From IMG/VR virus record IMGVR_UViG_3300011335_000231, positions 1 to 58,814 of that record: DNA of 58,814 bases; one strand, 5' to 3'. Of this stretch, positions 1 through 58,814 are shown piece by piece (position 1 is the first letter of the stretch; each line of letters starts with the position of its first letter). The position numbers and the translations under genes were made by a program. Below the pieces are notes generated by a model. That model was given only the letters and a program-made list of their open reading frames with translations, was not told the DNA's origin and did no database searches. This DNA is from a virus (taxonomy: Duplodnaviria; Caudoviricetes).

Positions 1-191
1 CCTGCTCCCTACAACACACCATATGTCAGAGTCTTGGTAACATTCCTAGCCTGCTTGTGCTCAGGATTGTTATCATCTTTCACAGTGCCTTTGTCAACTA
101 AGCCAAAACTCTGTGCATTGAACCAGTGGATATCACCTTTAAGCAGCTCAGTGATCCACTCTTGGTCATTGAGATAGTGACCTAAGCAGCG
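1..191 (+). repeat. Terminal overlap of the assembly, copy of 58624-58814
   Basis: 191-bp alignment with 5 mismatches (positions 9, 53, 57, 146, 179). It lies inside polA, so it marks circularity rather than a physical terminal repeat. Confidence 0.95.
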
Positions 192-1265
192 TAGCTCAAT
201 GCCTGACAGGTCAACACCCACCTGCTTATATCCCTTAGGCACTGTCCATACTTCTCTACACTCAGCACCATATGGACCACCCACTGCAGGAATCTGCGCC
301 ATATTAGGACTGCTATGTGTCGCCCTTCCTGTAACTGCGCCATTGGTAGTTACCCTACCATGCACTCTGCCATCATCAGCTACCAGTTCAAGCCAACTAC
401 TTATCTGAGATACACGCTTTTGAATCATTAAGTATTCAGCTACAAGCTTAGCTTCTGGTAAGTCAATCTTCTCAAGCACAGCCTCATCAACAATGACATT
501 GCCTTTGTCTGTCTTCTTTGTGAAGACAACACCAAGCCCTGCCAATCGCTCAGCAATCTGCTGCCTACTACCAGAATTAAAAATGGTAATCTTATCTTTC
601 AGTTGCTTGCCTGTCTTCTCAGAGATACGCTTCTCTACGATGGGAGGAAACACCTGCTGCATGCTCTCTTCAATGTCGGACATACGCCCACTAAGGGTTG
701 CATGTAACACCATAGCCTTAGGCATATCAAGCATGAAGCCATTGTCTTCCATGCCACGGCAGATGATGGCAACCTCATGCTCAAGCTGAATGCTCTGTAA
801 AGAGAAGCCTTCCTTTACCATCACTGTACTTAAGTAGTTGTAAAGTTTCTCAAGCAGCAACACATCCTGCTCACAATAGAGAGCCATGCTCTCAGTGTAA
901 CCACCATCAAAGGCAGTGAAGCCAATCTTGTGACTACCTAAGCGATAGCCCCATGCCTCTAAGCTATGTGGACTAGGGGCTTTGCCCTGCTCAGGAATAA
1001 CAATGTCAATGTCAGGTTTGTACAGCCGTGACATTACTAGGGTATCCACTAGGCTGTTGTCAGGAATGCCAACACCCCATACCTTCTTCAGGATGGGAGC
1101 ATCAAAGCCAATGATGTTATGGCCTACCACTTGCTCACCATCTAAGTATTGCTGCAAACTGTCGGCTTCCTGCCAGTGCCTCACCTCACCAGTGGTGTTG
1201 TGCTTGGTTACACACAGCCAAATGGTGTCATGTTTCAGGTTGGTTTCTATGTCTAAGAAGATCAT
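1..1265 (-). CDS. polA: Family A DNA polymerase, N-terminal part (3'-5' exonuclease and polymerase motif A); continues across the join to 58173
   Basis: ExoI FLDIET, ExoII GHNIIGFD, ExoIII YCEQDV, TGR..S.PN..QIP, motif A DLSGIELR. Start probably at 1265 (1283 possible). Joined protein is about 571 aa. Confidence 0.95.
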
Positions 1266-1428
1266 CGTTCTTGTCCTTATCATTTTGTCGGAGATTGTTA
1301 ACATCTACCGACTGTTTGTAATCTTCTAATGAATCTTTACCAAAGATGGCATTCCATCTGGTAGCCCACTCCTCATCAGCTATTGACTTAGGACGCTGAG
1401 CGTGTCCCTTACCACCATCACTCGTCAT
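1228..1428 (-). CDS. Hypothetical protein
   Basis: 66-aa ORF tiling between the adjacent genes. Confidence 0.55.
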   Translation of the reverse strand: MTSDGGKGHAQRPKSIADEEWATRWNAIFGKDSLEDYKQSVDVNNLRQNDKDKNDDLLRHRNQPET

Positions 1429-13616: not shown

Positions 13617-13853
13617 TCACAGGGCTTTTCTGCTACCAACAAGGGTTTTACCCTTGAACAACAGTGCCTCATCGTAACATCCCATCCACTGTAATGCTTC
13701 AGCTTTGCTGAGTGTGTAATGGTGTTTCTTGAAACCGACACCAGTTACTTTGTAACCAAACTTTTTGGCAACCAGTGCCATTGTGTCGTCTTTGACGGCA
13801 TAGATGAACGATGCAAGTGATGCAAAGAAAATTGTAGGGGCAATGTATTCCAT
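13617..13853 (-). CDS. Hypothetical early protein with hydrophobic N-terminus
   Basis: AAGGA SD; 78 aa. Confidence 0.75.
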   Translation of the reverse strand: MEYIAPTIFFASLASFIYAVKDDTMALVAKKFGYKVTGVGFKKHHYTLSKAEALQWMGCYDEALLFKGKTLVGSRKAL

Positions 13854-13882
13854 GATTTGTTTCCTTTAGGAAGGGTTAAAAA

Positions 13883-14206
13883 TTAAGCTCGGGCTTTGCT
13901 CAGTGCCAACAATTCGGCATATCCTGCTTCTTCTGAAGCATATTCATGACCTTTGAGAGCTTCTATGATACGGAGTTCATCACAAAGATAACTTCTGAAT
14001 TCAGTGATCTGAGAGTCAGAAAATTCCCCTTTTGTCAGGATGCTTCTAATGAACTTCTGAGTTTTCCGACCCTCAGAATCGTGAAACTCTTCAAGGACAT
14101 CCCAAAGGATGTCACCACAGTTATCAAGAACTGCTTTTGCTAGATTCAAAAAGCGAACCGGATCAGGTTGGTTTTGGTCAACAACTTTCATCTTCATGTC
14201 TTTCAT
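13883..14206 (-). CDS. Hypothetical protein, first gene of the early arm
   Basis: 107 aa; start codons lie within a long hairpin and no clear SD. Confidence 0.6.
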   Translation of the reverse strand: MKDMKMKVVDQNQPDPVRFLNLAKAVLDNCGDILWDVLEEFHDSEGRKTQKFIRSILTKGEFSDSQITEFRSYLCDELRIIEALKGHEYASEEAGYAELLALSKARA

Positions 14207-14282
14207 TTAATGAATTCAAGAGAAAATACCCTTTTTTCACTACCATGAAAAAGGATATTTTCTCTATTAAATGAAAGACATG
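14195..14282. repeat. Long imperfect inverted repeat 1
   Basis: CATGTCTTTCATTTAA/TTAAATGAAAGACATG plus an inner ~20-bp stem. Confidence 0.9.
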
Positions 14283-14305
14283 GATTCAGGCATGTAGGCG
14301 CAGAT

Positions 14306-14374
14306 CTTTCTATATTTAAACAAAAGAAGATGCCAACAAGTTGGCATGTCTTTTGTGATTATAAATATAGAAAG
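14306..14374. repeat. Long imperfect inverted repeat 2
   Basis: CTTTCTATATTTA/TAAATATAGAAAG, ACAAAAGA/TCTTTTGT, ATGCCAAC/GTTGGCAT. Confidence 0.9.
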
Positions 14375-14384
14375 TAATAGAGAC

Positions 14385-14570
14385 TTATCCACAACTTGTT
14401 CTTGGCTCGGTTTGGCAATCGGTGGATAACCCAGTGTTGTGCTGTGGATAACTTTGGAAATTGAAGGTTGTTGATAACTTTGGTTTTGCTGTGGATAACT
14501 TTACCGATTGGGGTATTCTCTTTAGAGGGTGGTGGATATACCGACCCTTCTGTCAATGGGGTTATGCAAA
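14385..14570. promoter_or_regulatory. DnaA-box cluster
   Basis: TTATCCACA at 14385; TGTGGATAA at 14443 and 14490; one-mismatch boxes at 14421 and 14469; weaker boxes at 14531 and 14562. Confidence 0.8.
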
Positions 14571-14614
14571 AAAAGCATAACTTTTTTGACACTTTTTAAC
14601 CATGAGAACCGATT

Positions 14615-14712
14615 TTGAATCAGTATTCAAGATCTTCTAAGTCCTTGAATTCATTAAAGAATCTTTTCTTTGAGTTGAATGCAGTTAAGATCTTTGAATC
14701 ACCTAGAGATCT
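14615..14712 (+). repeat. AT-rich TTGAAT..AGATCT repeats
   Basis: Units start at 14615, 14645, 14675 (30-bp period) and 14694. Confidence 0.65.
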
Positions 14713-14742
14713 GCATCGCATTGCAGGGCTGCTACGGCTGCA

Positions 14743-14782
14743 GGGCTGGGCGGCAGCGGGGCGGGGCGTGGGCCAGTGGGGG
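14743..14782 (+). other. G-tract cluster (G-quadruplex-forming potential)
   Basis: Six runs of at least 3 G within 40 nt. Confidence 0.6.
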
Positions 14783-14874
14783 TGTAGGCGCTATTGTATA
14801 TGGCCTCGTCCAAAAATCAGGAAAATTGAGTCTGTTAACCAAACTCCATATTTGGCAGCTTCCACACACCCCTA

Positions 14875-14986
14875 AAACAATTAGGGACAGATCAACTTTA
14901 GCGATCTGCACCGTCAACTACCCAGAGATGTGTACACGCTAGTATAGGAATTGTTCAGTATTCTAAACAATTAGGGACAGATCAAC
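14875..14986 (+). repeat. 22-bp direct repeat, two copies
   Basis: AAACAATTAGGGACAGATCAAC at 14875 and 14965. Confidence 0.9.
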
Positions 14987-15171
14987 ACTACACATAAAGA
15001 TGCACAAACAGCTACTAAGCGGTAACATATATGTTACTAGATAAGAACTATTCTCATTGAAATTTCATGCAACTTGATACTTAAAAGCTTTGACTAGATA
15101 CTTAAACTACACCCCCATATGGACCATTTTGTTATTTAGGCAATATTTCTGATTGTCCCTACAGAAAAAGC

Positions 15172-15200
15172 TTGACATTGGTTTCAATGTGTGTAAAACT
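15172..15200 (+). promoter_or_regulatory. Sigma70-type promoter heading the late arm
   Basis: TTGACA, then TAAAAC(T) after 16 nt; weak -10. Confidence 0.5.
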
Positions 15201-15203
15201 ACC

Positions 15204-15662
15204 AGTACCTGCACCATGTATGCCTAGAGCATACAGGCGATACGAAACAAAGTATGAGCTACCTTCCGGCTACAGGTAAAGAAATGAGCTTGCAATCGGC
15301 TGCTGAAGAGAAAAGACTCAGAGAGAACAATAGAGGGGCCACTCTGTTGTTCTACTTTGGACACTGGCAGTGGTACACCTTACACTGACCAGACTAGACT
15401 TGATGTGGGTACTTGTTAAAAGCTGTTGCTAAAAGGGTGGGCTAACAACAGCCATAGATGAACACATCCCTTATGGGCTTTCTAGGTGTATGTTCTAGAT
15501 ATTAGTGGTAGGTGGTATGTATTTCATAATGTGATATGTACCGTTCCCTACAGGTAATGGTAGTAGTTTCTTCACAGGACTTCTACCGTTACCTTCATAG
15601 ACACTATAGACATACATTGGGATAGGTTGTTATGTGTAGCAATAAATGCTACCATACCACCT
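15204..15662 (+). ncRNA. Candidate large structured ncRNA
   Basis: No ORF of 60 aa or more; at least 8 stems, several with G-U pairs that work only on the plus strand. Confidence 0.55.
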
Positions 15663-15694
15663 TAGCTAGGCTATGTGTGTTAGCATGAAGCATT

Positions 15695-15976
15695 ATGAAC
15701 TTATACACCCGACAACAGCTAGATGATAAAGGTTTAACAAACACATACCCCTACAGTGTAGCTACACAAGCTTCACTAGCGTTACACAGAGGTTATGTAG
15801 ACAAGATGCATTTATTCCACAGTGATGTTTATTATGTTAGAGCAGCACTAGAGAAAAACACAGGATATGTATTTCCCTTAGACAGAGTTGAAGATGCTAT
15901 GAGAGCTGAGGGATGGAAAGAACACAGACACCTACCAAAGAAGAAACAACATGGCAACAAAGAAAAGTACAGTTAA
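15695..15976 (+). CDS. Hypothetical protein
   Basis: 93 aa; first ORF of the late arm. Confidence 0.7.
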   Translation: MNLYTRQQLDDKGLTNTYPYSVATQASLALHRGYVDKMHLFHSDVYYVRAALEKNTGYVFPLDRVEDAMRAEGWKEHRHLPKKKQHGNKEKYS

Positions 15977-16130
15977 TGCTGCTGGCAATTACACCAAGCC
16001 TACAATGCGTAAGGCGTTAGTTGCTAGTGTGAAGGCTGGAACTAAAGGTGGTGATGCTGGTGAATGGTCTGCTAGGAAAGCACAGCTTGTTGCTAAAAAG
16101 TACAAAGCTGCTGGGGGTGGTTACAAATGA
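15951..16130 (+). CDS. Small basic protein (DUF5872 N-half-like, 59 aa)
   Basis: NYTKP.MRK..GG..GEWSARKAQ..YK.AGGGY. Confidence 0.8.
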   Translation: MATKKSTVNAAGNYTKPTMRKALVASVKAGTKGGDAGEWSARKAQLVAKKYKAAGGGYK

Positions 16131-16360
16131 AAGCTTCTCAGAAGTCTTTAAAAGATTGGACAGCCCAGAAGTGGACTACTAAGTCTGGTAAGCCCTCTTC
16201 TAAAACAGGAGAGAGATATCTGCCTGAAGCTGCCATTAAGTCTTTAAGCTCTGCTGAGTATGCAGCCACCACCAAAGCCAAGCGTGAAGGTACAAAAGCT
16301 GGTAAGCAGTTTGTTAAACAACCTAAAGACATTGCTAAGAAAGTGAGCAAGTTTAGATGA
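16127..16360 (+). CDS. Small basic protein (DUF5872 C-half-like)
   Basis: QKSLKDWT.QKW.T..ERYLP..A...LS. Confidence 0.8.
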   Translation: MKASQKSLKDWTAQKWTTKSGKPSSKTGERYLPEAAIKSLSSAEYAATTKAKREGTKAGKQFVKQPKDIAKKVSKFR

Positions 16361-16626
16361 TTAAAAAAGGCACTGAAGAGTTTTCAGGGTATAACAAGCC
16401 TAAGGCTACCCCTAAGCATCCTACGAAGAGTCATGCTGTGTTAGCTAAAGAGGGTGATACAGTGAAGCTCATTAGGTTTGGACAGCAGGGTGTTAGTGGT
16501 GCTGGAGCAAATCCAAGCACTCCTAAGGAGAAAGCTAGGCAGAAGAGTTTTAAAGCTAGACATGCTGAGAATATAGACAAGGGTAAGATGTCTGCTGCTT
16601 ATTGGGCAGACAAGGTTAAGTGGTAA
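16357..16626 (+). CDS. Small basic phage protein
   Basis: HPTKSH..IRFGQQG..SFKARH..SAAYWA..VKW. Confidence 0.8.
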   Translation: MIKKGTEEFSGYNKPKATPKHPTKSHAVLAKEGDTVKLIRFGQQGVSGAGANPSTPKEKARQKSFKARHAENIDKGKMSAAYWADKVKW

Positions 16627-19148: not shown

Positions 19149-19517
19149 ATGGCAAAAAGAGAACTAAGCGAACAACAGAAGAAATTCATTGAGGTGTTAT
19201 TTGCTGAGGCTGGAGGCAATCCAGCTAAGGCTAGGCAGCTTGCTGGCTATAGCGAAGGCTATGCTACCAAAGCTATCATGGACAACCTCAAAGAAGAAGT
19301 GATTGAAGCTACACAGCTATACATCGCCATGAACGCCCCTAGAGCAGCTATGGCTGTTGTTAGTGGCATTGCCGATCCCACAGAGCTAGGCTTGAAAGAG
19401 AAGCTCAATGCTGCTAAGGATTTGTTAGACAGGGCTGGCTTGGTGAAGACAGAGAAAGTTCAGGTGACAGCACCTAACGGCATCATGATTTTACCAGCTA
19501 AAGATAGCAGTGAGTGA
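19149..19517 (+). CDS. terS: Putative terminase small subunit
   Basis: LSEQQKKF...GN...A..AGYS HTH-like start; AAKDLLDRAG; upstream of terL. Confidence 0.7.
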   Translation: MAKRELSEQQKKFIEVLFAEAGGNPAKARQLAGYSEGYATKAIMDNLKEEVIEATQLYIAMNAPRAAMAVVSGIADPTELGLKEKLNAAKDLLDRAGLVKTEKVQVTAPNGIMILPAKDSSE

Positions 19518-27484: not shown

Positions 27485-27979
27485 ATGGCAACTATTACTA
27501 CTCTCTCAAACACTGTTGGTGCAGGTACACAACCTAGTCGTGCTCTTCGCAACATGCCTTATGTTGTAGAAAACACTATCAGCTTGGCTGCTGCTGTCAC
27601 AGCAAAAGGTTCTGCCTTGGCTGCTGCTGATGTGATTGAAGCTTTGCAGATTCCCGCACAATCTATTGTGTTGGCTGCTGGTTTTGAAATCACTGGTGCT
27701 GTTACAGGCAGCTGTACAGTGAGCTTGGGCGTTACTGGCGTAACAGCCGCTGCTTATGTGTCTGCCTTTGGTGTGACTAACGCTCTTTCTGTGGGTACTT
27801 ATGCTACTCCCGCAACTGCTGGTTATCCAATCGTGTCACAATCTGCTGATACTTTGGACTTGCTGTTGGTTACAGAAACCACTACACTGAGTGCTGGTTC
27901 AATTCGTGTTTTTGCTGTCATCGTAGATGCACAAGACCGTGTTGGCCCTGCCTCTGTAGACCGTGAGCAACTGGCTTAA
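27485..27979 (+). CDS. Putative capsid decoration/minor structural protein
   Basis: Follows capsid gene; AAGGAG SD; beta-rich. Confidence 0.7.
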   Translation: MATITTLSNTVGAGTQPSRALRNMPYVVENTISLAAAVTAKGSALAAADVIEALQIPAQSIVLAAGFEITGAVTGSCTVSLGVTGVTAAAYVSAFGVTNALSVGTYATPATAGYPIVSQSADTLDLLLVTETTTLSAGSIRVFAVIVDAQDRVGPASVDREQLA

Positions 27980-27994
27980 TAGCTAGTTAATACT

Positions 27995-28025
27995 GGGAGG
28001 GGCTTAACCGCCTCTCCCTTTTATT
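27995..28025 (+). terminator. Intrinsic terminator
   Basis: GGGAGGGGC-TTAACC-GCCTCTCCC-TTTTATT. Confidence 0.8.
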
Positions 28026-58172: not shown

Positions 58173-58814
58173 TTAATGTGTCTGTTTCCAGTTGTCCCCA
58201 ACCTTACCTTCGGCATCAACTGGACAACGGAAACCTAAAGCTTCACCTGCCTTGGTTGCTGCTTGCTCTATGAGCCTAGCTGCTTCCTCTGCCTGATCTT
58301 CTCTAACTTCCCATTGTGTTTCGTCATGAACAAACGCTAACAGTTTAGCATCTATTCCCTTCTCTTGCAACAGCTTTGTTGATTCAACAAGCCATTGTTT
58401 AGCAATGATAGCACCTGCACTTTGTAACAAAGTATTCAATGCTGCATGCTCAGATCTAACCCACACTCTCCTGCCATCTAAAGCAGGGAGGTGCCCCTTA
58501 GCCATGAGCCTAGATATCTTCTTCTTCAAGGCAGAAAGGCCGGGAGTATTATTGATAAAGCTATCAATAAGTTTCTTGCCTTTGCTACTGTTACCACCAA
58601 CAATGCTTCCAGCTTTAGCTGCCCCTGCTCCATACAACACACCATATGTCAGAGTCTTGGTAACATTCCTAGCCTTCTTATGCTCAGGATTGTTATCATC
58701 TTTCACAGTGCCTTTGTCAACTAAGCCAAAACTCTGTGCATTGAACCAGTGGATATCACCTTTAAGCAACTCAGTGATCCACTCTTGGTCATTGAGATAG
58801 TTACCTAAGCAGCG
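58173..58814 (-). CDS. polA: Family A DNA polymerase, C-terminal part (motifs B and C)
   Basis: R...KT..YG.LYGAG, N.LLQS, VHDE, G.NW..TH. Confidence 0.95.
   Translation of the reverse strand, partial: RCLGNYLNDQEWITELLKGDIHWFNAQSFGLVDKGTVKDDNNPEHKKARNVTKTLTYGVLYGAGAAKAGSIVGGNSSKGKKLIDSFINNTPGLSALKKKISRLMAKGHLPALDGRRVWVRSEHAALNTLLQSAGAIIAKQWLVESTKLLQEKGIDAKLLAFVHDETQWEVREDQAEEAARLIEQAATKAGEALGFRCPVDAEGKVGDNWKQTH

What the first reader, a model, noticed from the sequence alone, without database searches (positions are those of the whole stretch)
15204..15662. Candidate ~460-nt multidomain ncRNA heading the late operon
Seen: an ORF-free region starting right after a TTGACA promoter. Domain 1 is closed by 15204-15216/15401-15413 and contains hairpins 15217-15235, 15324-15353 and 15364-15392. 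Further hairpins follow at 15422-15452 and about 15460-15495. Domain 2 is closed by AGGTGGTATG/CATACCACCT (15510-15519/15653-15662) and has a 12-bp inner stem (15552-15594). Several stems use G-U pairs valid only on the plus strand, implying selection at the RNA level. Known: phages carry large structured RNAs (GOLLD, ROOL, HK022 put, phi29 pRNA); I cannot match this one to any of them. Inference: a new RNA class, possibly a late antiterminator, a packaging RNA, or a scaffold for the small basic proteins encoded just downstream.
Basis: partly seen in the sequence, partly recalled or inferred. Interest (0 to 1): 0.78.

Follow-up and report, generated by a model that had tools for sequence, protein, structure and literature searches.

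The report
Conserved structured leader RNA, phage late operon
A freshwater podophage and its close relatives carry a roughly 470-base non-coding RNA between the late promoter and the structural genes; it is better conserved than the neighbouring proteins and matches no known RNA family, and its function is still unknown.

Summary
The feature is real. Window 15204-15674 is non-coding: substitutions show no codon periodicity and most indels are not multiples of 3. It starts about 3 bases after an invariant promoter, TTGACA-N12-TGTGTAAAACTA (15172-15201). It is present in 62 distinct full-length sequences from one phage clade. Outside two variable hairpins, 86.5% of its positions are invariant in 27 sequences, against 20-28% of third and 71-83% of second codon positions next door.

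Folding beats shuffles in the window (z -5.2; domains -5.3 and -4.4), but less so in relatives (-2.3, -1.6). On a curated 130-pair model, 98.9% of cells pair. Eleven pairs show compensatory changes, against 0-5 in slid controls, and they fall in only 5 of 17 helices. The other helices show no compensatory change, and most never vary. G-U pairs mark the plus strand. Rfam gives no match even at E<=10.

RNA-library contigs join the leader to the downstream ORFs.

The function is untested. My best guess is a cis-acting leader that controls late-operon transcription, put-like but six times larger.

The parts
15172..15201 (+). Late promoter: TTGACA (15172-15177), 12-base spacer, TGTGTAAAACTA (15190-15201). 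The second element reads as TG-extended -10-like. The inferred start of transcription is about 15204-15207.
   Evidence: Both elements are invariant in 48 of 48 sequences. The motif occurs once in the window. That it is used as a promoter is inferred, not shown.
15204..15674 (+). Conserved structured leader RNA, about 470 nt.
   Evidence: An nhmmer profile covers 15201-15674. There are 62 distinct full-length copies. In 27 sequences 68.8% of positions are invariant, 86.5% outside the two variable hairpins. z is -5.24. There is no Rfam match.
15206..15411 (+). 5' domain closed by P1 (15206-15216 with 15401-15411). It contains P2 15217-15235, P3 15236-15260, P4/P4a 15263-15308, P5 15318-15360 and P6 15364-15392.
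   Evidence: The same helices appear in the MFE of three sequences of differing composition and in RNAalifold. Domain z is -5.34. No compensatory change is seen in P1, P3, P4 or P6.
15318..15360 (+). P5, a variable hairpin that carries most of the covariation.
   Evidence: Of its 15 pairs, 6 show changes on both sides and 7 show one-sided changes, mostly through G-U. 98.0% of cells pair (helix 6).
15421..15453 (+). P7 hairpin. Its loop holds GGGUGG (15435-15440).
   Evidence: Pair 15422/15452 changes G-C to A-U in 6 of 48 sequences and 9 of 62. Pair 15421/15453 changes A.C to G-U in the same sequences.
15478..15625 (+). Long-range helix P9 (15478-15494 with 15609-15625). It encloses a variable insert region (15495-15605) that comes in three length classes.
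   Evidence: P9 is predicted in all three classes, but all 15 pairs are invariant. The classes number 18 long, 18 medium and 12 short of 48.
15631..15656 (+). P11 hairpin.
   Evidence: Two pairs show compensatory change: G-C to U-A in 8 of 48 sequences, and U-A to C-G in 5 of 48 (helix 17).
15657..15662 (+). CCACCU, a candidate partner of the P7-loop GGGUGG (pseudoknot or alternative nested helix).
   Evidence: The six pairs are invariant in 48 of 48 sequences (helix 9). The pairing is compatible but untested.
15675..15694 (+). Flexible linker between the RNA and the first start codon.
   Evidence: About a quarter of the 48 aligned sequences carry extra bases exactly here, about 20 in most of them (columns 516-535). 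The RNA is therefore not tied in register to the ribosome-binding region.
15695..15976 (+). First ORF of the operon (93 aa, no known family).
   Evidence: Third-position share of substitutions is 0.60. It has 224 relatives in viral contigs. It has no Pfam or PHROG hit.

Best explanation
A clade-specific RNA of about 470 nt forms the 5' leader of the roughly 35-kb structural-gene operon of a freshwater HMO-2011-like podophage.

Inferred steps: host RNA polymerase starts at about 15204, just after an invariant TTGACA-N12-TGTGTAAAACTA promoter. The nascent leader folds into a P1-closed multi-helix 5' domain and a 3' domain, and transcription runs on into the ORFs. The most likely role is cis control of late transcription. 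The folded leader would bind the elongating polymerase, or a factor on it, and make it resistant to the terminator-like hairpins inside the operon. This works like HK022 put but is not a member of that family.

Shown: the sequence is conserved, non-coding, plus-strand, structured and contiguous with the ORFs in RNA-library contigs.

Inferred: the start site, the use of host polymerase and the antitermination role.

Odds: a real structured RNA about 0.85; cis control of late expression of any kind about 0.45; antitermination specifically about 0.3.
For: - Position: the RNA begins about 3 nt after the only copy of the promoter motif in the window. It heads an uninterrupted run of plus-strand genes from 15695 to 50746 that includes the large terminase, portal, major head and tail genes.
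- Conservation: identity rises exactly at the promoter, from 0.72 in the 50 bases before it to 0.89. The RNA core is 86.5% invariant, above second codon positions at 71-83%. This fits binding to a conserved macromolecule.
- Structure: 98.9% of cells pair. Eleven pairs have changes on both sides, against a shuffle mean of 7.1 (0 of 500 shuffles reach it) and 0-5 in slid controls. There are 72 compensated cells, against 22.7 in shuffles and 0-34 in slid controls.
- Strand: 17% of cells are G-U.
- Uncoupled from translation start: extra bases (about 20 in most) between the RNA and the ORF are tolerated in about a quarter of the sequences.
- Terminator-like hairpins lie on the plus strand at 28018, 38402 and 40420.
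- No RNA polymerase family was hit in 40 ORFs scanned.
- A 938-nt contig from an RNA library spans about 15218 to 16155. Contigs from two studies both end near 15218. This is a weak hint only.
Against: - No experiment and no recognisable antiterminator motif support the role.
- The RNA is six times the size of put (about 70 nt; passages of PMC9378689).
- P1 pairs the 5' end with bases 200 nt downstream, which is unusual for an element that must act during its own synthesis.
- In 103 other viral loci with the same promoter motif, the RNA profile finds nothing (0 of 103). Their leaders are shorter and unrelated: in 82 of 95 the first ORF of at least 60 aa starts 97-209 nt after the start site. 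The promoter therefore works without this RNA.
- No terminator follows the leader.
- No compensatory change is seen in 12 of 17 helices, and most of those never vary, so much of the fold is unproven.
- z is weak in relatives: -2.31 and -1.61.
- RNA-library contigs may include DNA.
- The PF00940 search had no positive control.
- One contig (L017) lacks 15294-15479.
Confidence: 0.35

Rival explanations
1. A stable ncRNA in its own right. It would be cut from, or made in excess over, the late transcript and act in trans. Possible roles are a large ornate RNA particle, an assembly or packaging co-factor, or a decoy for a host defence or a host enzyme.
For: - Near-complete invariance over runs of 26-41 nt in 62 distinct sequences resembles RNAs with dense tertiary or intermolecular contacts.
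- The sharp 3' boundary at 15674 and the tolerated extra bases after it make the RNA a self-contained module.
- It sits where late-infection expression would be highest.
- Large phage-associated RNAs of unknown function exist: GOLLD and ROOL (abstract of bioRxiv 10.1101/2024.12.08.627333).
Against: - No terminator or recognisable processing site lies at its 3' end.
- An RNA-library contig runs from the leader into the ORFs.
- There is no Rfam similarity to GOLLD, ROOL, pRNA or 6S RNA.
- The single 16-nt antisense match to the phage's own mRNA is not conserved.
Confidence: 0.3
2. A leader that sets mRNA stability or translation, or a binding platform for a phage timing protein, without acting on the polymerase.
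For: - The 5' end is sequestered in P1 from about the third transcribed base. This is a known type of protection against 5'-end-dependent decay (established knowledge, recalled).
- Relatives with the same promoter carry leaders full of short palindromes that look like protein sites.
Against: - 470 nt of near-invariant sequence is far more than end protection needs.
- The variable-length linker argues against a fixed structure that masks the start codon.
Confidence: 0.15
3. A DNA-level element, such as a replication origin, a primer-RNA region, a packaging site or an operator array. The RNA structure would be incidental.
For: - A cluster of DnaA-box-like sites lies 700 nt upstream. Five of the window's 20 matches, including 3 of its 4 perfect ones, fall in 14385-14498.
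- Many metagenome contigs break inside the region.
Against: - Compensatory changes keep pairing through G-U intermediates. These would be A-C mismatches on the other strand: 98.9% against 82.7% paired.
- The DnaA boxes are a separate, less conserved block.
- Contig breaks are expected where a conserved core meets variable flanks.
Confidence: 0.07

Closest known systems
HK022 put RNAs (putL, putR)
   Same: Both are phage-encoded and lie just downstream of a host-polymerase promoter at the head of a long operon. put acts in cis as a folded nascent RNA without a dedicated protein (passages of PMC9378689). That is the mechanism I favour here.
   Different: put is about 70 nt with two stem-loops. 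This RNA is about 470 nt with at least 12 helices. I found no sequence or Rfam similarity. put heads early operons of a lambdoid phage, whereas this heads the structural operon of a podophage. The activity here is untested.
Lambda late leader (pR' to tR', Q-dependent)
   Same: A strong promoter is followed by a long untranslated leader ahead of all late genes (recalled knowledge).
   Different: The lambda leader ends in a terminator and needs the Q protein. No terminator was found at the end of this leader, and I did not search for a Q homologue.
GOLLD and ROOL large ornate RNAs
   Same: They are large, highly conserved, phage or prophage associated and of unknown function (abstract of bioRxiv 10.1101/2024.12.08.627333; listing of PMC5737381).
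   Different: There is no Rfam match at E<=10. This RNA is smaller and has a fixed position as an operon leader rather than standing as a free gene.
Candidate structured RNAs of IMG/VR phages (Fremin et al. 2023, PMC10690425)
   Same: That catalogue of more than 10,000 unnamed motifs was built from intergenic regions of the same kind of data. Passages describe motifs that sit consistently upstream of particular phage genes.
   Different: I could not check whether this RNA is among them, because the supplementary tables are closed. No passage I read describes a 470-nt late-operon leader.

Membership tests
Any Rfam 15 family (includes GOLLD, ROOL, phi29 pRNA, 6S RNA, riboswitches, self-cleaving ribozymes; that these are in Rfam is recalled) | Covariance-model match | tested here: not met
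   0 matches at gathering score on the whole window. Nothing falls inside 15204-15662 at E<=10 on 14200-16000. 0 matches at E<=10 on 15195-15700 alone.
HK022 put RNA | About 70 nt, two stem-loops | tested here: not met
   This RNA is about 470 nt with 17 modelled helices. The put features come from passages of PMC9378689.
HK022 put RNA | Located just downstream of a host-polymerase promoter at the head of an operon | tested here: met
   The RNA starts about 3 nt after the promoter motif that ends at 15201.
HK022 put RNA | Suppresses terminators in cis by binding RNA polymerase | not testable with these tools
   This needs transcription assays.
Lambda-type Q-dependent late leader | Intrinsic terminator at the end of the leader | tested here: not met
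   No plus-strand terminator-like site lies in 15204-15700 in the tool scan. My own scan found only a weak hairpin inside the variable region.
Protein-coding small ORF | Codon periodicity of substitutions and in-frame indels | tested here: not met
   Phase shares are 0.30/0.32/0.39. Indels number 66 not in threes against 11 in threes.
tRNA or tmRNA | ARAGORN detection | tested here: not met
   0 genes in the window.

The most novel reading that the evidence does not exclude
This is a new class of large phage RNA. Nearly every base of its core is under selection because it docks onto the host transcription machinery, or assembles into a higher-order RNA particle. It would be acquired as a module behind a late promoter that is shared by well over a hundred aquatic phage contigs. 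If so, it would be a protein-free, put-like polymerase modifier several times more complex than any known, or the first ornate large RNA tied to the late operon of a podophage that carries an integrase but was not found in any bacterial genome scanned.
Probability: 0.3. Interest if true: 0.8.

Novelty: new variant of a known kind. Interest (0 to 1): 0.62.

Why it matters
Phages without their own RNA polymerase must drive tens of kilobases of late genes with the host enzyme. Known solutions are few: lambda Q, HK022 put and P4 Psu-type factors. This is a conserved 470-nt RNA placed exactly where such control acts, in an abundant freshwater phage group. It is a concrete candidate for a new RNA-based solution.

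If it acts in trans instead, it adds a well-defined member to the small set of large bacterial and phage RNAs of unknown function. It has 62 natural variants and three natural length classes to guide probing and structure work.

Tried and rejected
1. Conserved small ORF. Rejected. The ATG at 15254 is lost in about half of the sequences.

2. Distant homologues. The nhmmer profile found nothing in MW202701 (L001), CRP-13 (L002) or the six loci whose 93-aa ORF is 56-64% identical (L076-L081). It also found nothing in 103 loci that share the promoter motif.

3. Prophage or host copy. An invariant 34-mer gave 0 matches in genome contigs.

4. Antisense target. A perfect 16-nt complement of 15442-15457 lies at 19348-19363. 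It is perfect in only 37 of 110 locus pairs (not de-duplicated), varies at codon third positions and does not follow the P7 variant. I treat it as chance.

5. Terminator at the end of leaders in relatives. 7 of 101 leaders had one, against 7 of 82 control segments. Not enriched.

6. By eye, part of 15500-15545 resembles the start of marine leaders. An HMM built from 73 such leaders, and one built from 36 of their 5' ends, found nothing in the window at E<=10.

7. An ops-like GGTAG motif and a boxA-like string (on the minus strand), both seen by eye. The ops-like motif lies in the variable part. Not pursued.

8. Absence of cover on 13800-15122 in four RNA-library runs. That stretch is poorly conserved and was laid at 88% likeness, so this counts as no evidence.

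9. PF00940 search of the record found nothing, but the control rang nowhere. It is not informative alone.

10. One literature search with min_terms 1 returned only unrelated papers. Passages of PMC4819975 held nothing on transcription.

11. I built no covariance model. The RNA exceeds the practical model size, and the only distant loci held were already negative.

12. The search of earlier findings and the genome search 'relatives' were not available for this record.

Full report
**Setting.** The window is a complete virus record of 58,814 bases, rated 100% complete by CheckV.
- Minus-strand genes for replication and nucleotide metabolism run from both ends of the record towards the middle. 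They include DNA polymerase A, primase-helicase, integrase, ribonucleotide reductase, thymidylate synthase and exonuclease.
- Plus-strand genes 15695-50746 encode small basic proteins, a virion protein, the large terminase, portal, major head and tail-fibre proteins.
- Weak DNA matches, only inside 15950-16350, are to HMO-2011-type marine phages and one spring-water phage.
- Between the two gene blocks lies a 1.5-kb gap, 14207-14694 onward to 15694, that holds no convincing ORF. The finding is the right-hand third of that gap.

- 15204-15662 folds to -156.9 kcal/mol, against -126.0 +/- 5.9 for 100 dinucleotide shuffles (z -5.24). The minus strand gives z -2.74.
- The two halves score z -5.34 and -4.44 separately.
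- In relatives the signal is weaker: -2.31 for a medium-class sequence and -1.61 for the most divergent short-class one, where 10 of 100 shuffles fold as well.
- All three MFE folds nevertheless give the same helices.

**Relatives.** The 93-aa ORF just downstream has 224 relatives in viral contigs, of which 79 loci were kept.
- Every locus with enough upstream sequence aligns through the finding at 79-99% identity. The exception is L017, which lacks 15294-15479.
- After one scan of metagenome contigs (44 stretches), an nhmmer profile gave 177 hits. Of these 128 were full length and 62 were distinct.
- I aligned 48 distinct sequences as A1. I left out L017, three duplicates (L024, L028, L051) and L082, which is the same contig as L003.

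**Conservation.**
- Identity to the window is 0.58-0.72 over 14850-15149. It jumps to 0.89 at 15150-15199 and stays at 0.84-0.98 to 15699, apart from a dip to 0.68 at 15550-15599.
- In 27 sequences, 68.8% of RNA positions are invariant, and 86.5% outside 15318-15360 and 15505-15605. Adjacent ORFs show 66-71% at first, 71-83% at second and 20-28% at third codon positions. The stretch 14861-15165 shows 13%.
- In the 62 sequences, invariant runs of 26, 35, 29 and 41 nt remain.

**Not coding.**
- Substitutions fall 0.30/0.32/0.39 on the three phases, against 0.60, 0.80 and 0.64 at third positions in the three ORFs downstream.
- Indels number 66 not in threes against 11 in threes. In the 93-aa ORF the figures are 1 and 3.

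**Structure.**
- RNAalifold predicts 139 pairs, 12 of them with compensatory change.
- I curated a 130-pair, 17-helix model. It uses the local hairpin P7 and writes the GGGUGG/CCACCU pairing as a pseudoknot.
- On that model 98.9% of 6126 cells pair. Eleven pairs show changes on both sides, against a shuffle mean of 7.1 (0 of 500 shuffles reach it) and 0-5 in slid controls. Compensated cells number 72, against 22.7 in shuffles and 0-34 in slid controls. The covariation score is 0.093 against 0.066. One measure, further pair types, did not beat the shuffles (282 of 500 reach it).
- Compensatory changes lie in P5 (6 pairs), P11 (2 pairs), P7, P2 and the variable hairpin (1 pair each).
- No compensatory change is seen in the other 12 helices. 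P4, P8, P9 and the GGGUGG/CCACCU pairing never vary at all, and P1, P3 and P6 barely do. These helices are neither supported nor contradicted.
- The 62-sequence set gives the same picture: 0.989 of cells paired, and 40 of 130 pairs vary.

- The domain 2 closing stem fails. All 10 pairs are kept in 21 of 48 sequences and 7-8 pairs in 26, with an invariant 3' strand.
- The 5' strand of that stem instead belongs to a local hairpin whose sequence differs between three length classes: 18 long, 18 medium and 12 short.
- The 12-bp inner stem is absent from the short class.

**Strand.** 17% of cells are G-U. The model pairs at 98.9% read as plus-strand RNA and 82.7% read as the complement.

**Transcription.**
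- The promoter is TTGACA, 12 bases, then TGTGTAAAACTA. It is invariant in 48 of 48 sequences and occurs once in the window.
- The bases just after it (15203-15206) vary. Strict conservation then begins.
- Fourteen runs on record as RNA, almost all freshwater, lake or river metatranscriptomes, hold 12-21% of the words of 14600-16400.
- I laid four of them at 88% likeness. One 938-nt contig spans about 15218 to 16155. Contigs from two studies end at about 15218. Others tile 15364-15810.
- This fits a start near 15204 and read-through into the ORFs. However, contigs cannot show ends or levels, and DNA can be present in RNA libraries.

**A wider promoter family.**
- In 95 loci outside the clade with enough flank, the first ORF of at least 60 aa starts 97-209 nt after the inferred start site in 82, at 276-359 nt in 9 and nearer in 4 (a crude measure).
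- Their leaders are AT-rich, carry short palindromes and are unrelated to this RNA: 0 of 103 loci hit.
- The spring-water phage has a 396-nt leader of different sequence, z -3.0.
- The promoter and an untranslated leader are therefore general features. The 470-nt RNA is one clade's version.

**What it is not.**
- It matches no Rfam family and holds no tRNA.
- No bacterial genome holds the invariant 34-mer.
- No terminator follows the leader.
- It has no conserved antisense target.

**Mechanism.** I favour cis control of late transcription for these reasons.
- The RNA sits at the only late promoter motif.
- Terminator-like hairpins lie inside the operon at 28018, 38402 and 40420.
- No phage RNA polymerase was detected (the PF00940 test had no positive control).
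- The RNA is separated from the start codon by a linker of variable length.
- Its conservation is of the kind expected for a ligand of a conserved machine.

HK022 put shows that a nascent phage RNA alone can do this (passages of PMC9378689). The size, the long-range P1 and the unrelated leaders of sister clades all count against a simple put analogy. I put antitermination at about 0.3, any cis role at about 0.45 and a stable trans-acting RNA at about 0.3.

**Novelty.**
- My searches for HMO-2011 with non-coding RNA, freshwater and RNA polymerase, and for candidate structured RNAs in phages, found no description of this RNA.
- The IMG/VR catalogue of PMC10690425 may list part of it as an unnamed motif. 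I read passages only, and its supplements are closed.

Noticed in passing
window 14385-14498: A cluster of DnaA-box-like sites. Five of the window's 20 matches to TTATCCACA (up to 1 mismatch), including 3 of its 4 perfect matches, fall within 114 bases. The window-wide count is no more than chance. This may be a replication origin or a DnaA-regulated region.
   Followed up: partly
window 14600-14850: A second conserved non-coding block (identity 0.76-0.90), G-rich at 14720-14790. Part of it (14758-14839) is the strongest non-coding match to phage MW202701. It shows no codon periodicity, and its indels number 95 not in threes against 3 in threes. Function unknown.
   Followed up: partly
window 14875-14897 and 14965-14987: An exact 23-base direct repeat 90 bases apart, seen as cross-matches in many loci.
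   Followed up: no
window 13616 (minus strand): A perfect TTGACA-17-TATAAT consensus promoter facing the GP88-family gene 13588-12824.
   Followed up: no
viral contigs L192 and later: The motif TTGACA-N12-TGTGTAAAACTA is shared by at least 119 viral contigs, many of them unrelated in sequence downstream. Their leaders carry repeated short palindromes of the CACTTAAGTG kind.
   Followed up: partly
L017:2440-2462 (window 15294-15479 missing): One contig carries a 186-base deletion that removes P4a through P8. The junction has a short similar word on both sides. Whether it is a real variant or an assembly error is not known.
   Followed up: partly
window 9-1304 and 58173-58814 (minus strand): DNA polymerase A appears as two ORFs across the ends of the record. 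The record is therefore probably a permuted circle, and the gene may be split.
   Followed up: no
window 28018, 38402, 40420 (plus strand): Terminator-like hairpins with T-rich tails lie inside the structural operon. The strongest comes after the ORF that ends at 27979.
   Followed up: no
L155 and L174 (one 57,715-base metagenome contig): The RNA's 23-mer occurs at both ends of the same contig. That assembly therefore closes on itself inside the RNA. Many shorter contigs also start inside 15244-15642.
   Followed up: no
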